From: Patescibacteria group bacterium
GTDB lineage: Bacteria; Patescibacteriota; Gracilibacteria; Peribacterales; Peribacteraceae
DNA length: 38,192 bases
Reading direction: 5' to 3'
Assembly (NCBI GenBank): GCA_018818235.1
Contig: JAHISE010000074.1
Coordinates: 1-38,192, forward strand
In this document: positions 1 to 9,941 of the stretch, one piece after another
Layout of the letters: each line of letters begins with the position of its first letter
Position numbering within the stretch: the first letter of the stretch is position 1
Position numbers and translations under genes: made by a program
The notes under the pieces: generated by a model
Database searches by the model: none
Told to the model about the DNA's origin: nothing
Seen by the model: only the letters and a program-made list of their open reading frames with translations

Positions 1-1149
1 CGAGTGATCGGATATGATGTAAATGAAGAACGTATATCAACTCTTAAGAATAACAAAGACTGGACCGGCGAGCTTGCAGAAAGCCAGCTTAAGGAAGTTG
101 AAATTGAATTCGGTACCAATCCTGAAGTTATTAAAGAGGCAGATATTGTAATAGTTGCTCTCCCAACTCCTGTTGATGAAGGCAATAGACCCGATCTGAC
201 AATTCTTAAAGCAGGAACAACGACAGTCGGTCAGAATTTGAAGAGTGGAGCAACCGTGGTTTTTGAATCAACTGTTTACCCGGGTGTTACAGAAGATATT
301 TGCGGACCAATTTTGGAAAAAGAATCAGGTGGCAAAAACTTTAAACTTGGTTACTCCCCCGAACGTGTGAATCCCGGTGATAAAGAACATACCATTACAA
401 AAATTACAAAAGTTGTAGCAGGAGAAGATGAAGAAACTACTGATTCTCTCTGTGATCTATATGAATCAATCATCGAAGCCGGAGTTTACCGAGCGTCCTC
501 GATCAAAGTTGCTGAGATGTCCAAAGCAATCGAAAATGCGCAAAGGGATTTGAATATTGCTTACATCAATGAAATTGCAAAGCTCTGTAATAAACTCGAT
601 ATCAGCACAAAGGATGTATTGGATGCTGCCGGTAGCAAATGGAACTTCTTGCCGTTTAAACCCGGACTAGTTGGCGGACATTGTATTGGAGTTGATCCTT
701 ATTACTTGGTCGAATTGGCTCGCGATAAAGACACTATGATGAGACTTATTGAAAGTGCTCGTGATACAAATAGTGAAATGGCGGATTATGTTGCCGGTCA
801 AATTGTTAATGAGTTATCAAGTCCAAGCGAAAATTCTGTATTGATTCTTGGAACAACATTTAAGGAAGATGTTCCTGATATGCGAAATAGTCAGAACGTG
901 AAGGTAGTAGATGCGCTTAAAGCCAAGGGATGCAGAGTGGATACAGATGATCCATACAACGAACGATGTGAATCTGCAGAGAATTCTTATGATGCAATCG
1001 CATTACTGGTCCCACATCGTGAATATCTGGAAATGTCTTTGGATGAATTGCTTAAACCACTTAAAGAAGGAGGTGTTTTTTATGATTTGAAGTCGGTTTT
1101 GGATAAAAAGGAAATTGAAGAGGGAGGATATAGGTATTTGGGGCTGTGA
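1..1149 (+). CDS. Nucleotide-sugar 6-dehydrogenase, UDP-glucose/GDP-mannose dehydrogenase family (TviB/WbpO/CapL-like); 5' end outside the window
   Basis: The reading frame is open from the window edge and the N-terminal Rossmann GxGxxG is missing. Catalytic-Cys motif 'GGHCIGVDPYYL' and central helix 'AEMSKAIENAQRDLNIAYINE' are typical of the family. Stop at 1147-1149. Confidence 0.85.
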   Translation, partial: RVIGYDVNEERISTLKNNKDWTGELAESQLKEVEIEFGTNPEVIKEADIVIVALPTPVDEGNRPDLTILKAGTTTVGQNLKSGATVVFESTVYPGVTEDICGPILEKESGGKNFKLGYSPERVNPGDKEHTITKITKVVAGEDEETTDSLCDLYESIIEAGVYRASSIKVAEMSKAIENAQRDLNIAYINEIAKLCNKLDISTKDVLDAAGSKWNFLPFKPGLVGGHCIGVDPYYLVELARDKDTMMRLIESARDTNSEMADYVAGQIVNELSSPSENSVLILGTTFKEDVPDMRNSQNVKVVDALKAKGCRVDTDDPYNERCESAENSYDAIALLVPHREYLEMSLDELLKPLKEGGVFYDLKSVLDKKEIEEGGYRYLGL

Positions 1150-2249
1150 TAATTGTCAACCGCATCCTCAACCATCTCCACCGTCGTTCCATCCAAAGCT
1201 CTCCTCTGCTCTTCATTAGAAACCCTCAAAGTCTCCGCAACAAAAGATGATGGATTACACTCATCAGGTGGTAACACCAACCTGACCTTATCACTTTCCT
1301 TAGGCGGCTGTTCACCTGGATCTACGCATCCGACAATATCAACCAAAGCAACCCCAAGTGCATGTGCAATATAAAGTGGACCTGTATCAACCGAAACAAA
1401 CAACGAAGCTTTTGCAATTATTGCGGATAATTCTCTTAAATTAATTCCTCCAATATCTCTGCTTCCCTCTCTGCCAAACATCTCATGAGCCTTGGCAGTG
1501 ATTTCTTTGTCAGCTGAAGAGAATAAAATTTTCATTTCATATTTATCATGAATGTAACGAGCAAGTTCTACGAAGTTTTCCAATGGCCACTCTTTAAGTG
1601 GATTTCCTGCAGTGAGTGAAAGGACTGCAAAACGACCATGAACTCCGATACTTTCCAAAAGTCCTGATGCTTTTGTTTTTTCTAATCCTGTCAAATACAC
1701 ATCATGCTTATATTCAACCTCCGGAGCACCAACCATCTCGGCTATCTTCATATAATGATCAAATGTCCTTGTTCCACGTTCGTATTTAATTCTTTTTGAA
1801 TGAAAAAGGTGAAAGAAGAGTCCCATTAATCTTATTTTGCCTCCACGCGTATGCAATCTGACAGGAGCCGCTGTCCATAATCCCAGAAGTGCAGTCAAGA
1901 ATCCCGGCAATACAGTAATACTAAGAGCGAACCGTGATGAATATAATTTTTTAAACAACCTGAATCGTCCGCTTAAACCCTTGTAAGCATCATCATCAAT
2001 AAATATTAGAGTTGATATATTTGGATTGTTATCCAAAACAGAAGAGGCTCTTTTTAAACACAAGATCGATACTTCGTACCCACCTTCAGAAAGAGATTTG
2101 AACAAAGGAGTCGTACAAACCAGATCTCCAATCTTTCCAAGCTGAATTACCAATGCTTTTTTATTCTTCTTTGACCTTAACTTAGAAACAATAAGTAACC
2201 ATGGAAGAGCACACAAAGTTGCCAGCGCAAGAATCAAACTTCTAAACAT
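1080..2249 (-). CDS. Glycosyltransferase family 9 (ADP-heptose:LPS heptosyltransferase-like)
   Basis: N-terminal GT9 signature 'ALVIQLGKIGDLVCTTPLFKSL' and C-terminal 'VSVDTGPLYIAHALG'. The track start at 2282 is a TTG. The first ATG (2249) lies 1 nt after the HldC stop, so I prefer 2249. The 3' tail overlaps the convergent dehydrogenase by 70 nt. Confidence 0.75.
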   Translation of the reverse strand: MFRSLILALATLCALPWLLIVSKLRSKKNKKALVIQLGKIGDLVCTTPLFKSLSEGGYEVSILCLKRASSVLDNNPNISTLIFIDDDAYKGLSGRFRLFKKLYSSRFALSITVLPGFLTALLGLWTAAPVRLHTRGGKIRLMGLFFHLFHSKRIKYERGTRTFDHYMKIAEMVGAPEVEYKHDVYLTGLEKTKASGLLESIGVHGRFAVLSLTAGNPLKEWPLENFVELARYIHDKYEMKILFSSADKEITAKAHEMFGREGSRDIGGINLRELSAIIAKASLFVSVDTGPLYIAHALGVALVDIVGCVDPGEQPPKESDKVRLVLPPDECNPSSFVAETLRVSNEEQRRALDGTTVEMVEDAVDNYHSPKYLYPPSSISFLSKTDFKS

Positions 2250-2250
2250 T

Positions 2251-2733
2251 TTAAGAGCAGTATTTCTCTTTAATAACCTCAATCACATCACTTGTGGAAA
2301 GCAGTCTTTCTGATCTTTGAACTAATTTTAGCTCTGCCCCAATCTCTTTTACTACTGCTGCCTCCACGCAATCTTGTGAGTATTCTGAAGAGTTAACATG
2401 AACATCAGGTCGCACTTCCTTTAGCCACTCACGCGGATCTTCCTCGTCAAATAAGAACAGCCCGTCTATGCATTCTAATCCTGCAAGCAATTCAAGTCTC
2501 TGGCTTTCCGGAATTATCGGACGACTGTCATCTTTTATCTTTTTAACTGATACATCACTGTTAATTCCAACTAATAAAAAGTCTCCTGATGCTTTTGCAG
2601 CTTCTAATAAGCGCAAATGAGGAACCGAAAGCATATCAAATACTCCATTAGTTGTTACCACTGTTTTGCCCGATTCTTGAGCTTTATGAGCTATTTCAGC
2701 AGCTTTAGCCAGTGTGAGAATCTTTGATTGCAT
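2251..2733 (-). CDS. hldC: D-glycero-beta-D-manno-heptose 1-phosphate adenylyltransferase (RfaE domain II / HldC-like cytidylyltransferase fold)
   Basis: 'VVTTNGVFDMLSVPHLRLLEAAKASGDFLLVGINSDVS' aligns with the RfaE-II 'TNGCFDILHAGHVSYL...VAVNSD' region, although the HxGH motif reads SVPH. Size is about 160 aa. The ATG overlaps the gmhB stop (TAATG). Confidence 0.75.
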   Translation of the reverse strand: MQSKILTLAKAAEIAHKAQESGKTVVTTNGVFDMLSVPHLRLLEAAKASGDFLLVGINSDVSVKKIKDDSRPIIPESQRLELLAGLECIDGLFLFDEEDPREWLKEVRPDVHVNSSEYSQDCVEAAVVKEIGAELKLVQRSERLLSTSDVIEVIKEKYCS

Positions 2734-3251
2734 TATTTTAAGAGTATATCAGCAAGTTCATTTAAATCTTTGACAGTATAATCTCCTTTTTCTTCCATTG
2801 GGTATACTTCCGAAATAATTCTGGCGGTAGAGCATCCGATATTCTTGCCAAAAATTATATCCGCATCCTTATCTCCAATCATAATGCATTTTTCGGGATC
2901 AAGATCGGAGTATTCCTCACAAAGTGATTCCCACATACCCGTCTTTGGCTTTCTGCAATCACAACCCTGTTCTCGATGATGAGGACAAACTCTATATGAT
3001 TCAATTTTTATTCCTTCTTTATCAAGCATATTAAACAATCGAGTCATACATCTATCAAAATCATCACGAGTAAATATTTCGTGTCCAATACCCGACTGAT
3101 TTGTAAAAATAAAGAATCTGTAACCCGAATCTCTGAATCTCTGTAATCCTTCCACTGCACCCGGAACAAATTCCAGATCATTGGGATTACTTAAATAACT
3201 TTTATCAATATTGATCACGCCATCCCGATCCAATAAAAGAATATTAATCAT
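2733..3251 (-). CDS. gmhB: D-glycero-D-manno-heptose 1,7-bisphosphate phosphatase (HAD family)
   Basis: HAD motif I 'LLDRDGVIN', 'FTNQSGIG', and the Zn-binding 'CPHHREQGCDCRKPKTGM' characteristic of GmhB. Confidence 0.85.
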   Translation of the reverse strand: MINILLLDRDGVINIDKSYLSNPNDLEFVPGAVEGLQRFRDSGYRFFIFTNQSGIGHEIFTRDDFDRCMTRLFNMLDKEGIKIESYRVCPHHREQGCDCRKPKTGMWESLCEEYSDLDPEKCIMIGDKDADIIFGKNIGCSTARIISEVYPMEEKGDYTVKDLNELADILLK

Positions 3252-3260
3252 GTAAACAGA

Positions 3261-4613
3261 TTAAAGGACATCAATTAATTCCCCAACTGTAAGTGTGGCA
3301 GCTCCAGATTTTCGAACAACTATACTTGCCGCACGATTACCAATATCTGCCGCATCTTCGACCGTGCTTCCACATGCCATGCAAAGAGTAACAACCGCAG
3401 CAACGGTGTCACCGGCTCCGGAAACATCCACAACATCGGGAGAATGTGAATCGAAATGGATAATCAGTTTTCCCTTTTTATACACATCCATACCATCGCC
3501 TCCTCTGGTAAGAACTAACGTTCCACGGATATCTGAGCTTAATTTGCATCCAATCTTCTCGGGCTCTGAATCGTAATCTCCCAGCAAAAGCCTTGCCTCA
3601 CGCATATTTGGAGTAACTACACTTGCGTCCTTAAGATCTTCAAGTGAAGCAATCCCATTTGGTTTTGGATCCAGAATTACAGGAATCCCATTCTTTTTAC
3701 CAAGACTATAGCCAGTGCTGATTACTTTGGATGTAAGCACGCCCTTGGCATAATCTGTTAGCAAGATTGCTCTCGCAGATGGGGCAACCTCTTTCATTGC
3801 CATTATCAAACGCTTTTCTGTTCCGGAAGAAATTGGATGTGATTCCTCGGTATCTATCCTAACTATTTGTTGCATGTTAGCACTGACAATTCTGTGCTTA
3901 ACTGTTGTGGGACGTGTGCTTTCGGAAAGCAACGTGGACTTGATACCCTTATCTTTAAGAAGAGTTTTTATTTGCTGACCGGGACCGTCCTTTCCAACTA
4001 CGGAAATAATCTGAACATTCGCACCAAGCTCTTTTATATTCGCAACAGCATTCCCGGCACCTCCTAACATTTCTTTAACTTCTCTTGCTCTTACTACTGG
4101 TACGGGTGCTTCCGGTGAAATACGGTCAATTGATCCTTGTGTGTATCTATCAAGCATGCAGTCGCCTACAACCAGAATAGACCGTCCCTTAAATGAATTT
4201 ACAATTTCGGTTTGTCGTCCAAATCTTTCGACATCCACATGTCCCGAATATTCCGTTCTGTAACTATCATCTTCCTGATGATTTGTAGAGAATTCGAATA
4301 TTTCGCTGTCTTCGATTCCTGTGAATCTATGTGGCGTTCTGGGTGGAATATGGATAAAGTCTCCGGGCTCAAGCACAAACTCCTCTCCTCCGGTTTCCAA
4401 TTTGACCTTACCACTCTGGATATAGAAGACTTCATCCTTCTCCTTATGTGTGTGCATGCTGCATCGCCGATCCTTTTTGAGCATCAGCTTTTTGCCGCAA
4501 TATTCCTTATTCACAATCCAATGCTCTTCCCCCCATTCTTTGGGTTCCTTGTGTACATCACCTCCGGAGAAAAAGGCTTTTGTGGACCGAAAATGAACAT
4601 GAAAGTCATCCAT
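3261..4613 (-). CDS. hldA: Fusion protein: N-terminal metal-binding cupin (phosphomannose-isomerase-like) + D-beta-D-heptose 7-phosphate kinase (RfaE domain I / HldA, PfkB family)
   Basis: Cupin motifs 'SMHTHKEKDEVFYIQSG' (HxH-x4-E-x6-G) and 'GDFIHIPPRTPHRF' lie in residues ~50-100. They are followed by 'ILVVGDCMLDRY', 'SPEAPVPVV' and the PfkB signature 'DVSGAGDTVAAV'. Confidence 0.8.
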   Translation of the reverse strand: MDDFHVHFRSTKAFFSGGDVHKEPKEWGEEHWIVNKEYCGKKLMLKKDRRCSMHTHKEKDEVFYIQSGKVKLETGGEEFVLEPGDFIHIPPRTPHRFTGIEDSEIFEFSTNHQEDDSYRTEYSGHVDVERFGRQTEIVNSFKGRSILVVGDCMLDRYTQGSIDRISPEAPVPVVRAREVKEMLGGAGNAVANIKELGANVQIISVVGKDGPGQQIKTLLKDKGIKSTLLSESTRPTTVKHRIVSANMQQIVRIDTEESHPISSGTEKRLIMAMKEVAPSARAILLTDYAKGVLTSKVISTGYSLGKKNGIPVILDPKPNGIASLEDLKDASVVTPNMREARLLLGDYDSEPEKIGCKLSSDIRGTLVLTRGGDGMDVYKKGKLIIHFDSHSPDVVDVSGAGDTVAAVVTLCMACGSTVEDAADIGNRAASIVVRKSGAATLTVGELIDVL

Positions 4614-4661
4614 ATTTGGAATACGATTTTATCCTCTAAATGGTGGTTTGGCTAGGAAATT

Positions 4662-4816
4662 GGGGAGATTTATCTCTCCCCCCTTGTCTTCCCTCTCCCC
4701 CTGGCCCCTCCCCCCTGGGGGAGGGGGGACTCCGCCATTGGAGAGAACAGGTTTTGAAGTTACCAATAGCGGAGCTCCCCTCTCCCTTCGGGAGAGGGGG
4801 TCAGGGGGAGAGGGGC
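4662..4816. repeat. Cluster of three GC-rich hairpins (CCCCTCTCC/GGAGAGGGG family) in a divergent intergenic region
   Basis: Three hairpins: 'ggggagatttatctctcccc' (~4662-4681), 'cccctcccccctgggggagggg' (~4706-4727), and 'cccctctccc-ttc-gggagagggg' (4777-4799) followed by 'tcagggggagagggg'. The same motif family occurs at 33070-33276 and flanking the DUF559 gene. Confidence 0.7.
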
Positions 4817-4835
4817 TACAAGTGAAGAGGAGGCA

Positions 4836-8207: not shown

Positions 8208-9941
8208 ATGAAGCCACTTAGGATTCTAGTAACCGATGTACAGGAGCTTGCCGGTCTTGGTGCAGTTCGCTCTCTTGGGAGGGCAGGGCATATTGTTACC
8301 GCTGTCCATACGTCCGGCTTCCATCCTGCAGCGATCAACTCACGTTGGTGCAAAAATTCGATGGGATATCCGGACCCATGGAAATTCCATATGCAATTCC
8401 GTGAATGGCTTATAAATGAACTTGAAACAGGAAAATATGATGCAGTTCTCCCAACTGCAGAAGCTGCGATATTTGCTGTTAAAGAAATTAGAGATCAGTT
8501 TCCTCAGGATATTATTAAGATTCTTCCAAATGATGAGCATCTTAAACTCACCTTAAGTAAATTCCATGCAAACAAAACCGCAAAAAATGCAGGACTTACT
8601 ACTCCAAAAACAATATTTGTCTTTGATGGAAAAAATGAATGTGATGGCGACTTAAGCTCACTTGGATTTCCGGTAATCATCAAAACCGATAACTCTCTTA
8701 CATCCGAAGGAACTTATATTAAAGGTAGAACTGTTAGAGTTAACTCGCAGGAAGAAGCTGATTTGATATTTGAGGAATGCAAAGCGCTTGGATGCAGTGT
8801 TATTGCTCAAGAACCTGTAAAAGGTTCCGGAGTGGGAGTGTTCCTGCTTAGATGGAATGGAAAAACTATTCTCAAATTCGCACACCAAAGACTACATGAA
8901 GTTCCATGGACAGGTGGAGCCTCTTCTTTTCGTAAAAGCGTTCATGATAATGAGCTTATCGATCTTTCTGAAAAGTTTTTAGAGAGTATCGACTACCAAG
9001 GAGCTGCAATGATCGAATTCAGAAGAGACGGTACGGAAGGCGTTCCATACTTTATGGAAATTAATGGAAGATTGTGGGGGTCGATTGCGTTATGCCTCCA
9101 TGCCGGATTAGATTTTCCGAAAACTTTAGTTGATTGTGAATCACAAGGAGAGCCGGAAAGCCCTATAAATAAACAAAAAAGCTATCCAAGTAATCTTAAG
9201 TGCAGAAATCTTTCAGGTGAGATCAACTACGTAAGTTCTGTACTTAAGTCTAAATCCGGTCCGTCTAAAACCAAGACAATACTTGAATTCTTTGCATTAA
9301 GCTTGAATCCTCTGGTTAAGTATGACTATTTTTGGTGGAGTGACCCGATGCCGGCGTTAGTTCAGGCTTATTTGACTTCAATTGATATACTTAAAGGATT
9401 TAAAAACAGAATTAAATCTATGTTTGTCTCACGAAAAACTCCTGTAACCCCAAAGCTTACTCATTTTGAGTCTAAACCAAATAAAATACTCTTCATATGC
9501 CATGGAAATATCTGCCGAAGTGCATTTGCAGAATTTTATTGGAACAAAAACTTTTCTAAGTCCGGTGTAAAAGCCATTTCTGCAGGACTATGCAAAGAAA
9601 TGAACAGGCCTGTCCCCCTTCGTGCACAATCTATAGCAAATGTTTTTGGACTCGACCTTTCCGGCCACAAATCAAAATCTGTAACAAAAGAAATAATTGA
9701 TGAATGTGATTTGATCTTTGTAATGGATACGGAAAACTACGAAGGAATGTTAGATAAGTTTCCACACTCTGAATCAAAATTGATTTTTCTTGGAAGTCTT
9801 TCAGGTGAAAAAAATATCGAAATATCCGATCCATGCAGAAAATGCCCGATGAAGTTTGATCCTATAGAAGCCAAGAATATATTTGATAGAATTATTAATA
9901 ATTTGAATTTATTAAATCGTTATATTTCCAATCAGTCTTGA
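8208..9941 (+). CDS. Fusion protein: ATP-grasp carboxylate-amine ligase-like domain + C-terminal low-molecular-weight phosphotyrosine phosphatase/ArsC-like domain
   Basis: The ATP-grasp core carries 'FPVIIKTD', 'VIAQEPVKGSGVGVF' and 'AAMIEFRRD...PYFMEINGRLWGS'. The C-terminal ~150 aa carry the CX5R(S) P-loop 'ILFICHGNICRSAFAE' and the 'ISDP' Asp loop. Confidence 0.8.
   Translation: MKPLRILVTDVQELAGLGAVRSLGRAGHIVTAVHTSGFHPAAINSRWCKNSMGYPDPWKFHMQFREWLINELETGKYDAVLPTAEAAIFAVKEIRDQFPQDIIKILPNDEHLKLTLSKFHANKTAKNAGLTTPKTIFVFDGKNECDGDLSSLGFPVIIKTDNSLTSEGTYIKGRTVRVNSQEEADLIFEECKALGCSVIAQEPVKGSGVGVFLLRWNGKTILKFAHQRLHEVPWTGGASSFRKSVHDNELIDLSEKFLESIDYQGAAMIEFRRDGTEGVPYFMEINGRLWGSIALCLHAGLDFPKTLVDCESQGEPESPINKQKSYPSNLKCRNLSGEINYVSSVLKSKSGPSKTKTILEFFALSLNPLVKYDYFWWSDPMPALVQAYLTSIDILKGFKNRIKSMFVSRKTPVTPKLTHFESKPNKILFICHGNICRSAFAEFYWNKNFSKSGVKAISAGLCKEMNRPVPLRAQSIANVFGLDLSGHKSKSVTKEIIDECDLIFVMDTENYEGMLDKFPHSESKLIFLGSLSGEKNIEISDPCRKCPMKFDPIEAKNIFDRIINNLNLLNRYISNQS

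What the first reader, a model, noticed from the sequence alone, without database searches (positions are those of the whole stretch)
3261..4613. Cupin::heptose-7-phosphate kinase fusion in an ADP-heptose operon that lacks GmhA
The operon encodes the kinase (HldA), phosphatase (GmhB), adenylyltransferase (HldC) and a GT9 heptosyltransferase. No SIS-domain sedoheptulose-7-P isomerase (GmhA) and no HldD epimerase occur anywhere in the window. Instead, the kinase carries an N-terminal ~125-aa cupin with both metal-binding motifs (HTH-x4-E-x6-G and GDFIHIPPRTPH). The cupin sequence 'WGEEHWIV...YCGKKLMLKKDRRCSMHTH' resembles the catalytic cupin of type II phosphomannose isomerases. Fru-6-P to Man-6-P is the same aldose-ketose chemistry as sedoheptulose-7-P to D-glycero-D-manno-heptose-7-P. 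The fusion could therefore be a non-orthologous replacement of GmhA that channels product directly into the kinase. Alternatively the cupin could be a sugar-nucleotide epimerase or ketoisomerase that alters the heptose configuration.
Basis: partly seen in the sequence, partly recalled or inferred. Interest (0 to 1): 0.6.

Follow-up and report, generated by a model that had tools for sequence, protein, structure and literature searches.

The report
Cupin stand-in for heptose isomerase GmhA
A small metal-binding cupin domain fused to the heptose kinase of this ultra-small (Peregrinibacteria) bacterium most likely carries out the first step of ADP-heptose synthesis in place of the unrelated standard enzyme GmhA, and the same unnamed cupin fills that slot in many bacteria, tiny archaea and ocean phages; no enzyme assay exists yet.

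Summary
Window 3261-4613 (minus strand) encodes a 450-aa protein with an N-terminal Cupin_2 domain and a C-terminal heptose-7-phosphate kinase (HldA). GmhB, HldC and a GT9 heptosyltransferase follow it. The 95%-complete genome has no GmhA; its only SIS protein is GlmS.

The cupin belongs to a tightly conserved, unnamed family.
- It is fused to HldA in both orders, and also to HldC, GmhB and GT9.
- In DPANN archaea it heads cupin|HldD|HldA|GmhB::HldC operons. In cyanophages it sits beside either of two unrelated heptose kinases.
- All 50 genomes tested that carry it have HldA; 43 have no GmhA-like match.
- In a Planctomycetota sample, 0 of 8 cupin carriers have GmhA, against 113 of 129 other HldA-positive genomes.
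- A related genome has GmhA exactly where the cupin sits here.
- All eight catalytic residues of D-lyxose/D-mannose isomerases are invariant in the family.

Best reading (about 0.8): a cupin-type sedoheptulose-7-phosphate isomerase, a non-homologous replacement of GmhA. This rests on comparative genomics only. No paper describing it was found. Earlier follow-ups of this scan reached the same reading on other genomes. Exceptions exist: some genomes have both enzymes, and some have neither.

The parts
4209..4613 (-). Cupin domain (residues 1-135 of the fusion; folded barrel about residues 20-122). Proposed metal-dependent sedoheptulose-7-phosphate isomerase.
   Evidence: Cupin_2 E 8.4e-15. AF2 model with mean pLDDT 89 is an all-beta barrel. 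Family invariants K25, K41, H54, H56, K59, E61, H95, E107, H112, D116 and R119 are present.
3261..4208 (-). Short linker plus HldA-type D-glycero-beta-D-manno-heptose-7-phosphate kinase domain (residues 136-450, then the stop codon).
   Evidence: PfkB E 5.4e-40. rfaE_dom_I covers 3-312 of 315 positions, 314.5 bits. The GG and GAGD motifs can be read in the translation.
2733..3251 (-). GmhB-like HAD-IIIA heptose-1,7-bisphosphate 7-phosphatase.
   Evidence: PRK08942 E 5.4e-42, below its cut-off. DxDGV, FTNQSG, Cys/His loop and GDKDAD motifs.
2251..2733 (-). HldC-like heptose-1-phosphate adenylyltransferase with SVPH in place of HxGH.
   Evidence: rfaE_dom_II E 2.1e-39. The motif variant is shared by a subclade of Peribacteria.
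1080..2282 (-). GT9 heptosyltransferase, the likely consumer of the nucleotide-heptose. The TTG start at 2282 is the longest possible; the true start may lie further downstream.
   Evidence: Glyco_transf_9 E 2.5e-19. It is conserved at the end of the operon in 20 related loci.
4614..4835 (.). Divergent intergenic region upstream of the fusion gene. It holds C-run/G-run hairpins and one sigma-70-like match (4654-4626, minus strand).
   Evidence: Sequence read. The consensus scan found no more matches than shuffled controls, so this is weak.

Best explanation
The N-terminal cupin is a metal-dependent aldose-ketose isomerase. It converts sedoheptulose-7-phosphate (made by the genome's transaldolase and transketolase) into D-glycero-D-manno-heptose-7-phosphate. 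This is the reaction normally done by the unrelated SIS-fold enzyme GmhA.

The fused HldA domain then phosphorylates C1. GmhB removes the 7-phosphate. HldC makes the nucleotide-heptose, and the GT9 enzyme transfers the heptose to an acceptor. Fusion places the isomerase next to the kinase, so the unfavourable isomerisation is pulled forward.

By analogy with D-lyxose/D-mannose isomerases, the chemistry would run as follows. H54, H56, E61 and H95 hold the metal. E61 abstracts the proton to give a cis-enediolate, which K59 and the metal stabilise. K41, E107 and D116 position the sugar. Family-specific invariant residues (K25, N35, H112, R119) are candidates for binding the longer phosphorylated tail.

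Shown: the domain architecture, the absence of GmhA, the genomic associations, and the conservation of catalytic residues. Inferred: the substrate, the product and the mechanism.
For: 1. Missing step. The genome has HldA, GmhB, HldC and GT9 but no GmhA. It has a source of S7P: a transaldolase at 190 bits next to a transketolase-like gene.

2. Same slot. In the related genome G118 the order is GmhA|HldA|GmhB|HldC, with the GmhA stop overlapping the HldA start. That is exactly where the cupin is fused here.

3. Recurrent fusion.
- Among 240 homologues: 71 cupin::HldA, 43 HldA::cupin (plus two unrelated NeuB::cupin ORFs that the count also placed in this class), and triple fusions.
- Other architectures: HldC::cupin, HldA::HldC::cupin, GmhB::cupin::HldC and GT9::cupin::HldA.
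- The tree shows at least 3 N-terminal and at least 4 C-terminal fusion clades.

4. Operons.
- DPANN archaea have cupin|HldD-like (265 bits)|HldA|GmhB::HldC|GT9 with no GmhA.
- Cyanophage P-SSM2 has HldC|HldA|HAD phosphatase|cupin|HldD.
- Phage Bellamy has HddA-type GHMP kinase|cupin|HddC-like transferase.
- So the cupin pairs with two unrelated heptose-7-P kinases.

5. Phyletic pattern.
- HldA is present in 50 of 50 cupin genomes, and 43 of 50 have no GmhA-like match.
- Class sample: 6 of 7 fusion genomes lack GmhA, whereas 8 of 11 genomes with unfused HldA have it close by (within about 1.5 kb on the same contig).
- Planctomycetota sample: GmhA in 0 of 8 cupin carriers and in 113 of 129 other HldA-positive genomes.

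6. Catalytic residues. TsLI residues K62, H75, H77, K86, E88, H143, E156 and D163 (PMC8378251) align to K41, H54, H56, K59, E61, H95, E107 and D115/D116. Counting D116 for the last site, all are invariant in 57 of 57 family members.

7. Structure. Structure-based identity is highest to D-lyxose isomerases: 30-31% over 108 residues, rmsd 2.0 Å, Z 15.

8. Conservation. In the fusions the cupin is 64-72% identical between genomes, while the kinase is 40-45% identical.
Against: - There is no biochemical evidence for any member of the family.
- Complementarity with GmhA is not perfect. G268 and five of the 50 cupin genomes also carry a weak GmhA-like gene (89-142 bits). In two of them it lies next to a second, divergent kinase.
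- Some genomes have HldA but neither enzyme: G215, G075, G230 and 16 of 137 HldA-positive Planctomycetota. Absence of GmhA therefore has other causes too, such as incomplete MAGs or another route. G215's kinase nests inside the fused clade, which suggests it lost the cupin secondarily.
- Related genomes are not independent, so the raw counts overstate significance.
- A few family members are fused to NUDIX or RmlD-like domains rather than heptose enzymes.
- Residue mapping rests on a profile alignment with a one-residue ambiguity at D115/D116. No model coordinates were available to check the geometry.
Confidence: 0.8

Rival explanations
1. The cupin is an ordinary phosphomannose isomerase (Fru-6-P to Man-6-P) or a broad sugar-phosphate isomerase. 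The operon would then make a hexose nucleotide such as ADP-mannose through a heptose-like kinase/phosphatase/transferase route, or the cupin would serve GDP-mannose synthesis.
For: There are weak PF01050 and GMP_PMI matches. Small single-domain cupins of Thermococcus are annotated PMIs and are structural neighbours. PMI chemistry is the same reaction on a substrate one carbon shorter.
Against: - True split PMI cupins of the same class lie next to ManC, carry Q rather than H54, lack N35, C39, F63, H112 and R119, form a separate clade, and co-occur with GmhA.
- The heptose-type cupin was never found without HldA (50 of 50), and 33 of the 40 other sampled genomes of the window's family have neither the fusion nor a related cupin.
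- The associated kinases score at or above the HldA equivalog cut-off in DPANN (350-399 bits), so there is no sign of a changed sugar.
- HldD-like heptose epimerases sit in the same operons.
Confidence: 0.08
2. The cupin modifies the heptose after isomerisation. It could be an epimerase or ketoisomerase acting on heptose phosphate or nucleotide-heptose, like the RmlC-type cupins of Campylobacter heptose pathways. The S7P isomerase would then be supplied by something else, or the heptose phosphate would be scavenged from a host.
For: Cupin epimerases exist in heptose-modifying pathways (general knowledge, not tested here). CPR and DPANN organisms are probably episymbionts that could scavenge metabolites. 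Some genomes have HldA with neither GmhA nor the cupin.
Against: - The full 3His-1Glu metal site and the Lys/Glu/Asp set of aldose-ketose isomerases are conserved.
- There is no match to RmlC, FdtA or WxcM families.
- No 4,6-dehydratase, which such enzymes need, accompanies the cupin in these operons.
- The cupin is fused to the kinase, the enzyme that consumes the isomerase product.
- It is strictly anti-correlated with GmhA in Planctomycetota, which are free-living and have 4-5 Mb genomes.
- HldD-like epimerases are present alongside the cupin.
Confidence: 0.07
3. The cupin is a non-catalytic ligand- or metal-sensing domain that regulates the kinase.
For: Cupin domains serve as sensor modules in AraC-type regulators. 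There is a weak AraC_binding hit (E 1e-6).
Against: - The cupin also occurs as a free-standing protein in operons and phages, and fused to HldC, GmhB or GT9 instead of the kinase.
- It is more conserved than the kinase.
- The catalytic residues of sugar isomerases are invariant.
- A sensor role would not explain the complementary distribution with GmhA.
Confidence: 0.03

Closest known systems
GmhA, D-sedoheptulose-7-phosphate isomerase (SIS fold; TIGR00441, PF13580; EC 5.3.1.28)
   Same: The proposed reaction and pathway position are the same. GmhA occupies the same gene slot directly upstream of HldA in related genomes, and its distribution complements that of the cupin.
   Different: The fold is unrelated (alpha/beta SIS versus cupin beta-barrel) and there is no sequence similarity. 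This would be an analogue, not a homologue.
D-lyxose/D-mannose isomerases (PF07385; Thermofilum TsLI 7NZO-7NZQ, B. subtilis YdaE 2Y0O)
   Same: These have the closest sequence profile and the highest structure-based identity: E 3.7e-8 and 2.8e-7; 30-31% over 108 residues, rmsd 2.0 Å, Z 15. All eight metal- and sugar-binding residues are conserved. They produce or accept manno-configured aldoses.
   Different: They are 170-230 aa, with N-terminal helices and an insertion of about 22 residues (21-23 in the two alignments) between the two cupin motifs that this family lacks. They act on unphosphorylated sugars and are not linked to heptose genes. The Pfam match is only marginal.
Type II phosphomannose isomerase cupin (PF01050; C-terminal domain of ManC/AlgA-type GMP-PMI; small Thermococcus PMIs 7ZVM/7ZVY)
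   Same: They share the small cupin fold, the KxWGxE...YxGK...HxxKxE...H pattern and the aldose-ketose chemistry that gives a manno product. Structure-based identity is 23-24%.
   Different: PF01050 scores below its cut-off. The first metal position is Gln in PMI-type and His here. PMI-type cupins form a separate clade and are fused or adjacent to ManC, not HldA.
Cupin-type phosphoglucose isomerase of Euryarchaeota (PF06560; Pyrococcus furiosus cPGI)
   Same: This is a precedent for a metal-dependent cupin that replaces a non-homologous sugar-phosphate isomerase in a core pathway (cited in PMC7304191).
   Different: It uses a different substrate (Glc-6-P/Fru-6-P) and belongs to a different subfamily. 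PDB matches are only at E 0.3.
HldE, the bifunctional heptose kinase/adenylyltransferase of Gram-negative bacteria
   Same: It is a fusion of consecutive ADP-heptose pathway enzymes, and the kinase domain is homologous (PRK11316, E 3.6e-73).
   Different: HldE fuses the kinase to the adenylyltransferase. Here the kinase is fused to the proposed isomerase, and HldC is a separate gene.

Membership tests
GmhA (SIS-fold sedoheptulose-7-phosphate isomerase) | SIS/SIS_2 domain matching TIGR00441 | tested here: not met
   The fusion protein has no SIS hit. In the whole genome only GlmS matches.
GmhA (SIS-fold sedoheptulose-7-phosphate isomerase) | Catalyses S7P to D-glycero-D-manno-heptose-7-P | not testable with these tools
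   This needs an enzyme assay or complementation of a gmhA deletion.
GmhA (SIS-fold sedoheptulose-7-phosphate isomerase) | Genomic linkage to the heptose kinase, phosphatase and nucleotidyltransferase | tested here: met
   The cupin is fused or adjacent to HldA, GmhB, HldC or GT9 in CPR, DPANN, Bdellovibrionota and cyanophages.
Cupin superfamily (Cupin_2, PF07883) | Double-stranded beta-helix barrel | tested here: met
   Cupin_2 E 8.4e-15. The AF2 model has pLDDT 89 and 11 strands. Z is 14-15.7 to many cupins.
Cupin superfamily (Cupin_2, PF07883) | Motif 1 HxH(x3-4)E(x6)G and the motif 2 His, which form the metal site | tested here: met
   H54, H56, E61, G68 and H95 are present and invariant in 57 of 57 members. 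The leading Gly of motif 1 is Asp in the window protein.
D-lyxose/D-mannose isomerase (PF07385) | Pfam gathering threshold | tested here: inconclusive
   The whole protein scores 22.6 bits against a 20.8 cut-off, but no single stretch passes on its own.
D-lyxose/D-mannose isomerase (PF07385) | Active-site set K62, H75, H77, K86, E88, H143, E156, D163 (TsLI numbering) | tested here: met
   The profile alignment maps them to K41, H54, H56, K59, E61, H95, E107 and D115/D116, all invariant when D116 is taken for the last site. The residue list comes from PMC8378251.
D-lyxose/D-mannose isomerase (PF07385) | Protein of about 170-230 aa with an N-terminal extension and a long insertion between the cupin motifs | tested here: not met
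   The family core is about 115 aa, and the insertion of about 22 residues seen in 2Y0O and 7NZO is absent.
Type II phosphomannose isomerase cupin (PF01050) | Pfam gathering threshold | tested here: not met
   20.6 bits, below the 23.6 cut-off.
Type II phosphomannose isomerase cupin (PF01050) | The S-L-Q-x-H signature, and fusion or adjacency to mannose-1-P guanylyltransferase | tested here: not met
   The position is His54 in 57 of 57 heptose-type members and Gln in 6 of 6 ManC-adjacent CPR cupins. The partner here is HldA.
HldA heptose-7-phosphate kinase (TIGR02198), for residues 136-450 | Equivalog cut-off of 345 bits | tested here: not met
   314.5 bits over 3-312 of 315 positions. This is far the best family; ribokinase is next at 93 bits. 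DPANN orthologues linked to the cupin exceed the cut-off.
HldA heptose-7-phosphate kinase (TIGR02198), for residues 136-450 | PfkB GG and GAGD motifs, and an operon with GmhB and HldC | tested here: met
   The motifs can be read. The operon is shown.

The most novel reading that the evidence does not exclude
This cupin family is a previously undescribed, non-homologous isofunctional enzyme for EC 5.3.1.28 (a cupin-type sedoheptulose-7-phosphate isomerase). It would be the main entry point to nucleotide-heptose synthesis in Peribacteria, many DPANN archaea, a Planctomycetota lineage, some Bdellovibrionota and Dependentiae, and T4-like cyanophages. It would feed both the ADP-heptose (HldA) and GDP-heptose-type (HddA) branches.
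Probability: 0.78. Interest if true: 0.75.

Novelty: new variant of a known kind. Interest (0 to 1): 0.7.

Why it matters
- GmhA is treated as the universal first enzyme of heptose synthesis for LPS cores, S-layer and capsule glycans. Pathway reconstructions score the pathway as incomplete when it is missing.
- A cupin analogue would close that gap for whole lineages: CPR, DPANN, Planctomycetota and cyanophages.
- It would correct widespread mis-annotation. The cupin is labelled 'cysteine dioxygenase', 'putative nucleotidyltransferase' or 'cupin domain-containing protein'. In cyanophages a small HAD phosphatase carries the label 'phosphoheptose isomerase'.
- It would add a case of non-orthologous displacement that parallels the cupin-type phosphoglucose isomerase.
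- It would show that ultra-small episymbionts and ocean phages make their own activated heptose.
- ADP-heptose and its precursors are innate-immune signals and GmhA is a drug target, so a second, structurally unrelated isomerase is worth knowing about.
- The prediction can be tested directly with one coupled assay or one complementation experiment.

Tried and rejected
Contexts were rebuilt from genome loci with my own ORF calls and phmmer labels.
- Relaxed searches for a hidden GmhA in the window's genome found only GlmS (TIGR00441 at E<=1, SIS, SIS_2).
- RmlC, FdtA or WxcM-type epimerase/ketoisomerase was rejected. No family hit appears, and 4zu4 scores E 0.17.
- Membership of type II PMI was rejected on signature, clade and gene context.
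- Fold search alone cannot assign a function. All cupins tie at Z 14-15.7, and KdgF, Pac13 and CapF rank as high as the isomerases. Only the sequence identity within the structural alignment separates them.
- The 'phosphoheptose isomerase' genes next to the cupin in cyanophages were checked as a possible counter-example. They are 102-114-aa HAD-type phosphatases, not SIS proteins.
- G215 (an HldA operon with neither GmhA nor the cupin) was examined as a counter-example. Its kinase nests within the fused clade, so the cupin was probably lost.
- A full-length AF2 model was not run. The tool returns no coordinates or inter-domain error, so it could not inform channelling.
- The geometry of the predicted active site could not be measured, for the same reason.
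- Literature searches found nothing describing this enzyme (cupin+GmhA+heptose, cupin+sedoheptulose, phosphoheptose isomerase+cupin, Peregrinibacteria+heptose, ADP-heptose+archaea+GmhA, heptose+cyanophage+isomerase). The library lacks most subscription journals.
Full report
**1. What is in the window**

The ORF at 3261-4613 lies on the minus strand and encodes 450 aa.
- Pfam finds Cupin_2 at residues 48-102 (E 8.4e-15) and PfkB at 145-440 (E 5.4e-40).
- NCBIfam places residues 139-448 on the heptose-7-phosphate kinase model rfaE_dom_I. The match covers 3-312 of 315 positions, at E 7e-94 and 314.5 bits against a cut-off of 345. The next family, ribokinase, scores 93 bits.

Three genes follow on the same strand:
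- a GmhB-like HAD phosphatase (2733-3251)
- an HldC-like adenylyltransferase (2251-2733)
- a GT9 heptosyltransferase (1080-2282)

Homologue names place the organism among Peregrinibacteria/Peribacteria, within the candidate phyla radiation (CPR).

**2. The missing step**

The assembly is 1.58 Mb in 164 contigs and 95.3% complete. Searches with gmhA (TIGR00441, E up to 1), SIS_2 and SIS hit only a 603-aa GlmS-like ORF. No HldD reaches its cut-off. The genome has a transaldolase (190 bits) beside a transketolase-like gene, so sedoheptulose-7-phosphate is available.

**3. The cupin is a member of a distinct, highly conserved family**

A search with residues 1-135 found hundreds of 105-160-aa proteins that are 50-68% identical, from Planctomycetota, DPANN archaea and others. 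In an alignment of 55 members, 24 columns are invariant.

A profile search of 1.84 billion cluster representatives gave 200 hits at E<=1e-30 and 3080 at E<=1e-10. NCBIfam has no model for the family. Sources name its members 'cupin domain-containing protein', 'PfkB family carbohydrate kinase' or similar.

Within the Peribacteria fusions, the cupin is 64-72% identical to the window's, while the kinase is 40-45% identical.

**4. It is not the ordinary PMI cupin**

Other families of the same class have 126-151-aa cupins that are 41-47% identical to this one. These lie directly after a ManC-type guanylyltransferase (NTP_transferase plus ManC_GMP_beta-helix), so they form a split type II PMI-GMP.
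- They carry the classic S-L-Q-x-H signature.
- They score 84-110 bits on the family HMM, against 132-200 for heptose-type members.
- They form their own clade with 100% support.
- They differ at the family-specific invariant positions N35, C39, H54, F63, H112 and R119.

**5. Gene fusion**

Among the 240 homologues collected:
- 71 are cupin::HldA.
- 43 are HldA::cupin, for example from Oligoflexia. The count also placed two unrelated NeuB::cupin ORFs in this class.
- Some are cupin::HldA::HldC.

Representatives also include HldC::cupin, HldA::HldC::cupin, GmhB::cupin::HldC and GT9::cupin::HldA. A few carry NUDIX or RmlD-like partners instead.

On the cupin tree the Peribacteria N-fusions form one clade (SH-aLRT 96) that includes the window protein. 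The other N-fusions and at least four C-fusion groups are separate, so fusion happened repeatedly.

**6. Operons**

In 80 loci from named genomes, labelled by phmmer:
- Peribacteria show cupin::HldA|GmhB(::HldC)|GT9.
- Woesearchaeota/Nanoarchaeota show a free-standing cupin at the head of HldA|GmhB|HldC(|GT9). The cupin is either directly adjacent or separated by one translationally coupled gene. In the one locus scanned (L057), that gene's best hit is ADP-heptose 6-epimerase (TIGR02197, 265 bits, cut-off 274.6).

In the operons with that extra gene every step except GmhA has a gene, and the cupin is the only unassigned gene.

In the related genome G118 the order is GmhA|HldA|GmhB|HldC, with GmhA overlapping the HldA start. 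This is the slot the cupin occupies in the window.

**7. Phages**

Thirty-five T4-like cyanophage records encode the cupin at 45-53% identity. It is annotated 'cysteine dioxygenase', 'putative nucleotidyltransferase' or 'hypothetical protein'.
- In P-SSM2 it lies in HldC-like|HldA-like|small HAD phosphatase|cupin|HldD-like.
- In phage Bellamy it lies between an HddA-type GHMP kinase (NF049969, E 7e-83) and an HddC-like nucleotidyltransferase.

The cupin thus partners two unrelated kinases. What they share is their substrate, which is the product of GmhA.

The neighbouring phage genes labelled 'phosphoheptose isomerase' are 102-114-aa HAD-type phosphatases with no SIS match.

**8. Distribution against GmhA**

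(a) Class sample of 301 genomes.
- The fusion is found in 7, all in the window's family.
- Six of these have no GmhA-like match at E<=1e-8. One (G268) has an 89.5-bit GmhA-like gene next to an FSA/transaldolase-like gene on another contig.
- Of 11 genomes with unfused HldA, 8 have GmhA close by (within about 1.5 kb on the same contig) at 160-210 bits. G215, G075 and G230 have none.

(b) Fifty genomes carrying the heptose-type cupin.
- HldA is present in 50 of 50.
- 43 have no GmhA-like match, 2 have trivial SIS hits, and 5 have weak GmhA-like hits (107-142 bits).
- In two of those five, the hit lies beside a second, divergent kinase.
- Two of the 50 genomes (G321, G327) are flagged unpublished. 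Without them the counts are 48 of 48 for HldA and 42 of 48 for no GmhA-like match. Loci L065 and L077 come from these genomes and contribute only to the DPANN operon description.

(c) Planctomycetota sample of 151 genomes. Here the cupin is not linked to HldA on the chromosome.
- 8 genomes have the cupin at >=140 bits. All are HldA-positive, and 0 of 8 have GmhA.
- Of 129 other HldA-positive genomes, 113 have GmhA and 16 have neither.
- Weaker, PMI-like cupins co-occur with GmhA in 6 of 7.
- A naive Fisher test gives about 3e-7. Relatedness of the genomes makes this an overestimate of significance.

**9. Catalytic machinery**

A profile of the family matches B. subtilis YdaE (2Y0O, E 3.7e-8) and Thermofilum TsLI (7NZO, E 2.8e-7) across both cupin motifs and the C-terminal EFS motif.

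The TsLI paper lists K62, H75, H77, K86, E88, H143, E156 and D163 as the metal- and sugar-binding residues. It describes a cis-enediol mechanism with E88 as base and K86 stabilising (PMC8378251).
- These residues align to K41, H54, H56, K59, E61, H95, E107 and D115/D116.
- All are invariant in 57 of 57 heptose-type cupins, taking the invariant D116 as the counterpart of D163. The profile pairs D163 with the variable D115, so a one-residue shift is assumed.

The AF2 model of the domain has pLDDT 89. It matches many cupins at Z 14-15.7. The highest structure-based identities are to D-lyxose isomerases (30-31% over 108 residues, rmsd 2.0 Å), followed by the Thermococcus PMIs (23-24%).

D-lyxose/D-mannose isomerases and PMIs both make manno-configured aldoses. 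The conversion of S7P to D-glycero-D-manno-heptose-7-P is the same reaction on a substrate one carbon longer.

**10. Exceptions and limits**

- G215 has HldA|GmhB|HldC|GT9 with neither isomerase. Its kinase nests inside the fused Peribacteria clade (SH-aLRT 97-100), so the cupin was probably lost.
- G075 and G230 (TGA-recoded Gracilibacteria), with 104-139-bit HldA-like genes, and 16 Planctomycetota MAGs also lack both enzymes.
- Several genomes have both a cupin and a weak GmhA-like gene.
- Nothing here measures activity. All functional statements are inference from genomics and homology.

**11. Prior knowledge**

No paper in the searchable library links a cupin to GmhA, phosphoheptose isomerase or sedoheptulose. 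A CPR metabolism paper discusses only the cupin-type PGI. A cyanophage genome note lists 'phosphoheptose isomerase' among heptose genes without mentioning the cupin.

The scan's own notes show that earlier follow-ups reached the same reading on other genomes, including DPANN, CPR, cyanophages and giant viruses. Those are unchecked AI notes. I re-derived the evidence here and treat them as leads only.

**12. Verdict**

The most likely function is a cupin-type sedoheptulose-7-phosphate isomerase fused to the kinase that consumes its product (confidence about 0.8). The main rivals are a plain PMI or hexose route (0.08), a heptose-modifying epimerase (0.07) and a regulatory domain (0.03).

Noticed in passing
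window 2251-2733 (-): The HldC-like adenylyltransferase reads FDMLSVPH where the family has FDxxHxGH. The S[VL][PA]H variant is shared by five other Peribacteria (L035, L038, L041, L042, L044), all with an unfused HldC. It is therefore a conserved subclade trait rather than decay, and the nucleotide used may differ.
   Followed up: partly
L110:4056-4367, L110:5697-6026, L111:3449-3757, L112:4649-4993 (cyanophages S-SM2, Bellamy, P-SSM2): Genes annotated 'phosphoheptose isomerase' (T4-GC 306) are 102-114-aa HAD-type phosphatases (TIGR01689 E 1e-8; weak HAD_PNKP) with no SIS domain. The adjacent cupin (T4-GC 307) is annotated 'cysteine dioxygenase' or 'putative nucleotidyltransferase'. Both labels look wrong.
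   Followed up: yes
L013:5252-10547, L017:2972-7759, L028:5697-10460: In other families of the same class there is a conserved trio: a ManC-type guanylyltransferase, a split PMI-type cupin (SLQYH), and a roughly 1050-aa SecD/SecF protein with an inserted PPIC-type rotamase domain.
   Followed up: partly
L026:6121-7695 (G051), L027:14008-15510 (G278): These are 500-524-aa NeuB (sialic-acid-synthase family)::cupin fusions. The cupin keeps the HxH...K.E...H pattern and the Lyx_isomer-like motif. This may be another sugar isomerase fused to the next enzyme of its pathway.
   Followed up: no
L025:6631-9519 (G177); similar in G184 and G062: This is a second kind of heptose-like module in the window's family. 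A 505-aa reversed-order HldC::PfkB fusion is followed by a 125-bit GmhA-like gene and an inositol-monophosphatase/HisN-family phosphatase, which stands where a GmhB would be expected.
   Followed up: partly
L019:5882-7326 (G268): The only fusion genome in the class sample with a GmhA-like gene (89.5 bits) has it translationally coupled to an FSA/transaldolase-like gene. This may be a separate sedoheptulose-phosphate module.
   Followed up: partly
P0298, P0287 (representatives): Some high-scoring family members (143-146 bits) are fused to NUDIX (NUDIX::cupin), or to both an RmlD-like reductase and NUDIX (cupin::RmlD-like::NUDIX), instead of heptose enzymes. The family may have a second context.
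   Followed up: no
window 4662-4816: The divergent spacer upstream of the fusion gene is filled with C-run/G-run hairpins (for example ggggagag...ctctcccc) in otherwise 40% GC DNA.
   Followed up: no
window 8208-9941 (+): A 577-aa ATP-grasp::LMW phosphotyrosine-phosphatase fusion lies in the divergent glycan-decoration operon.
   Followed up: no
class sample: The only other sampled genome of the window's own genus (G257, 97% complete) has no match to the fusion at all. The whole heptose operon is therefore accessory within the genus and family (7 of 41 genomes).
   Followed up: partly
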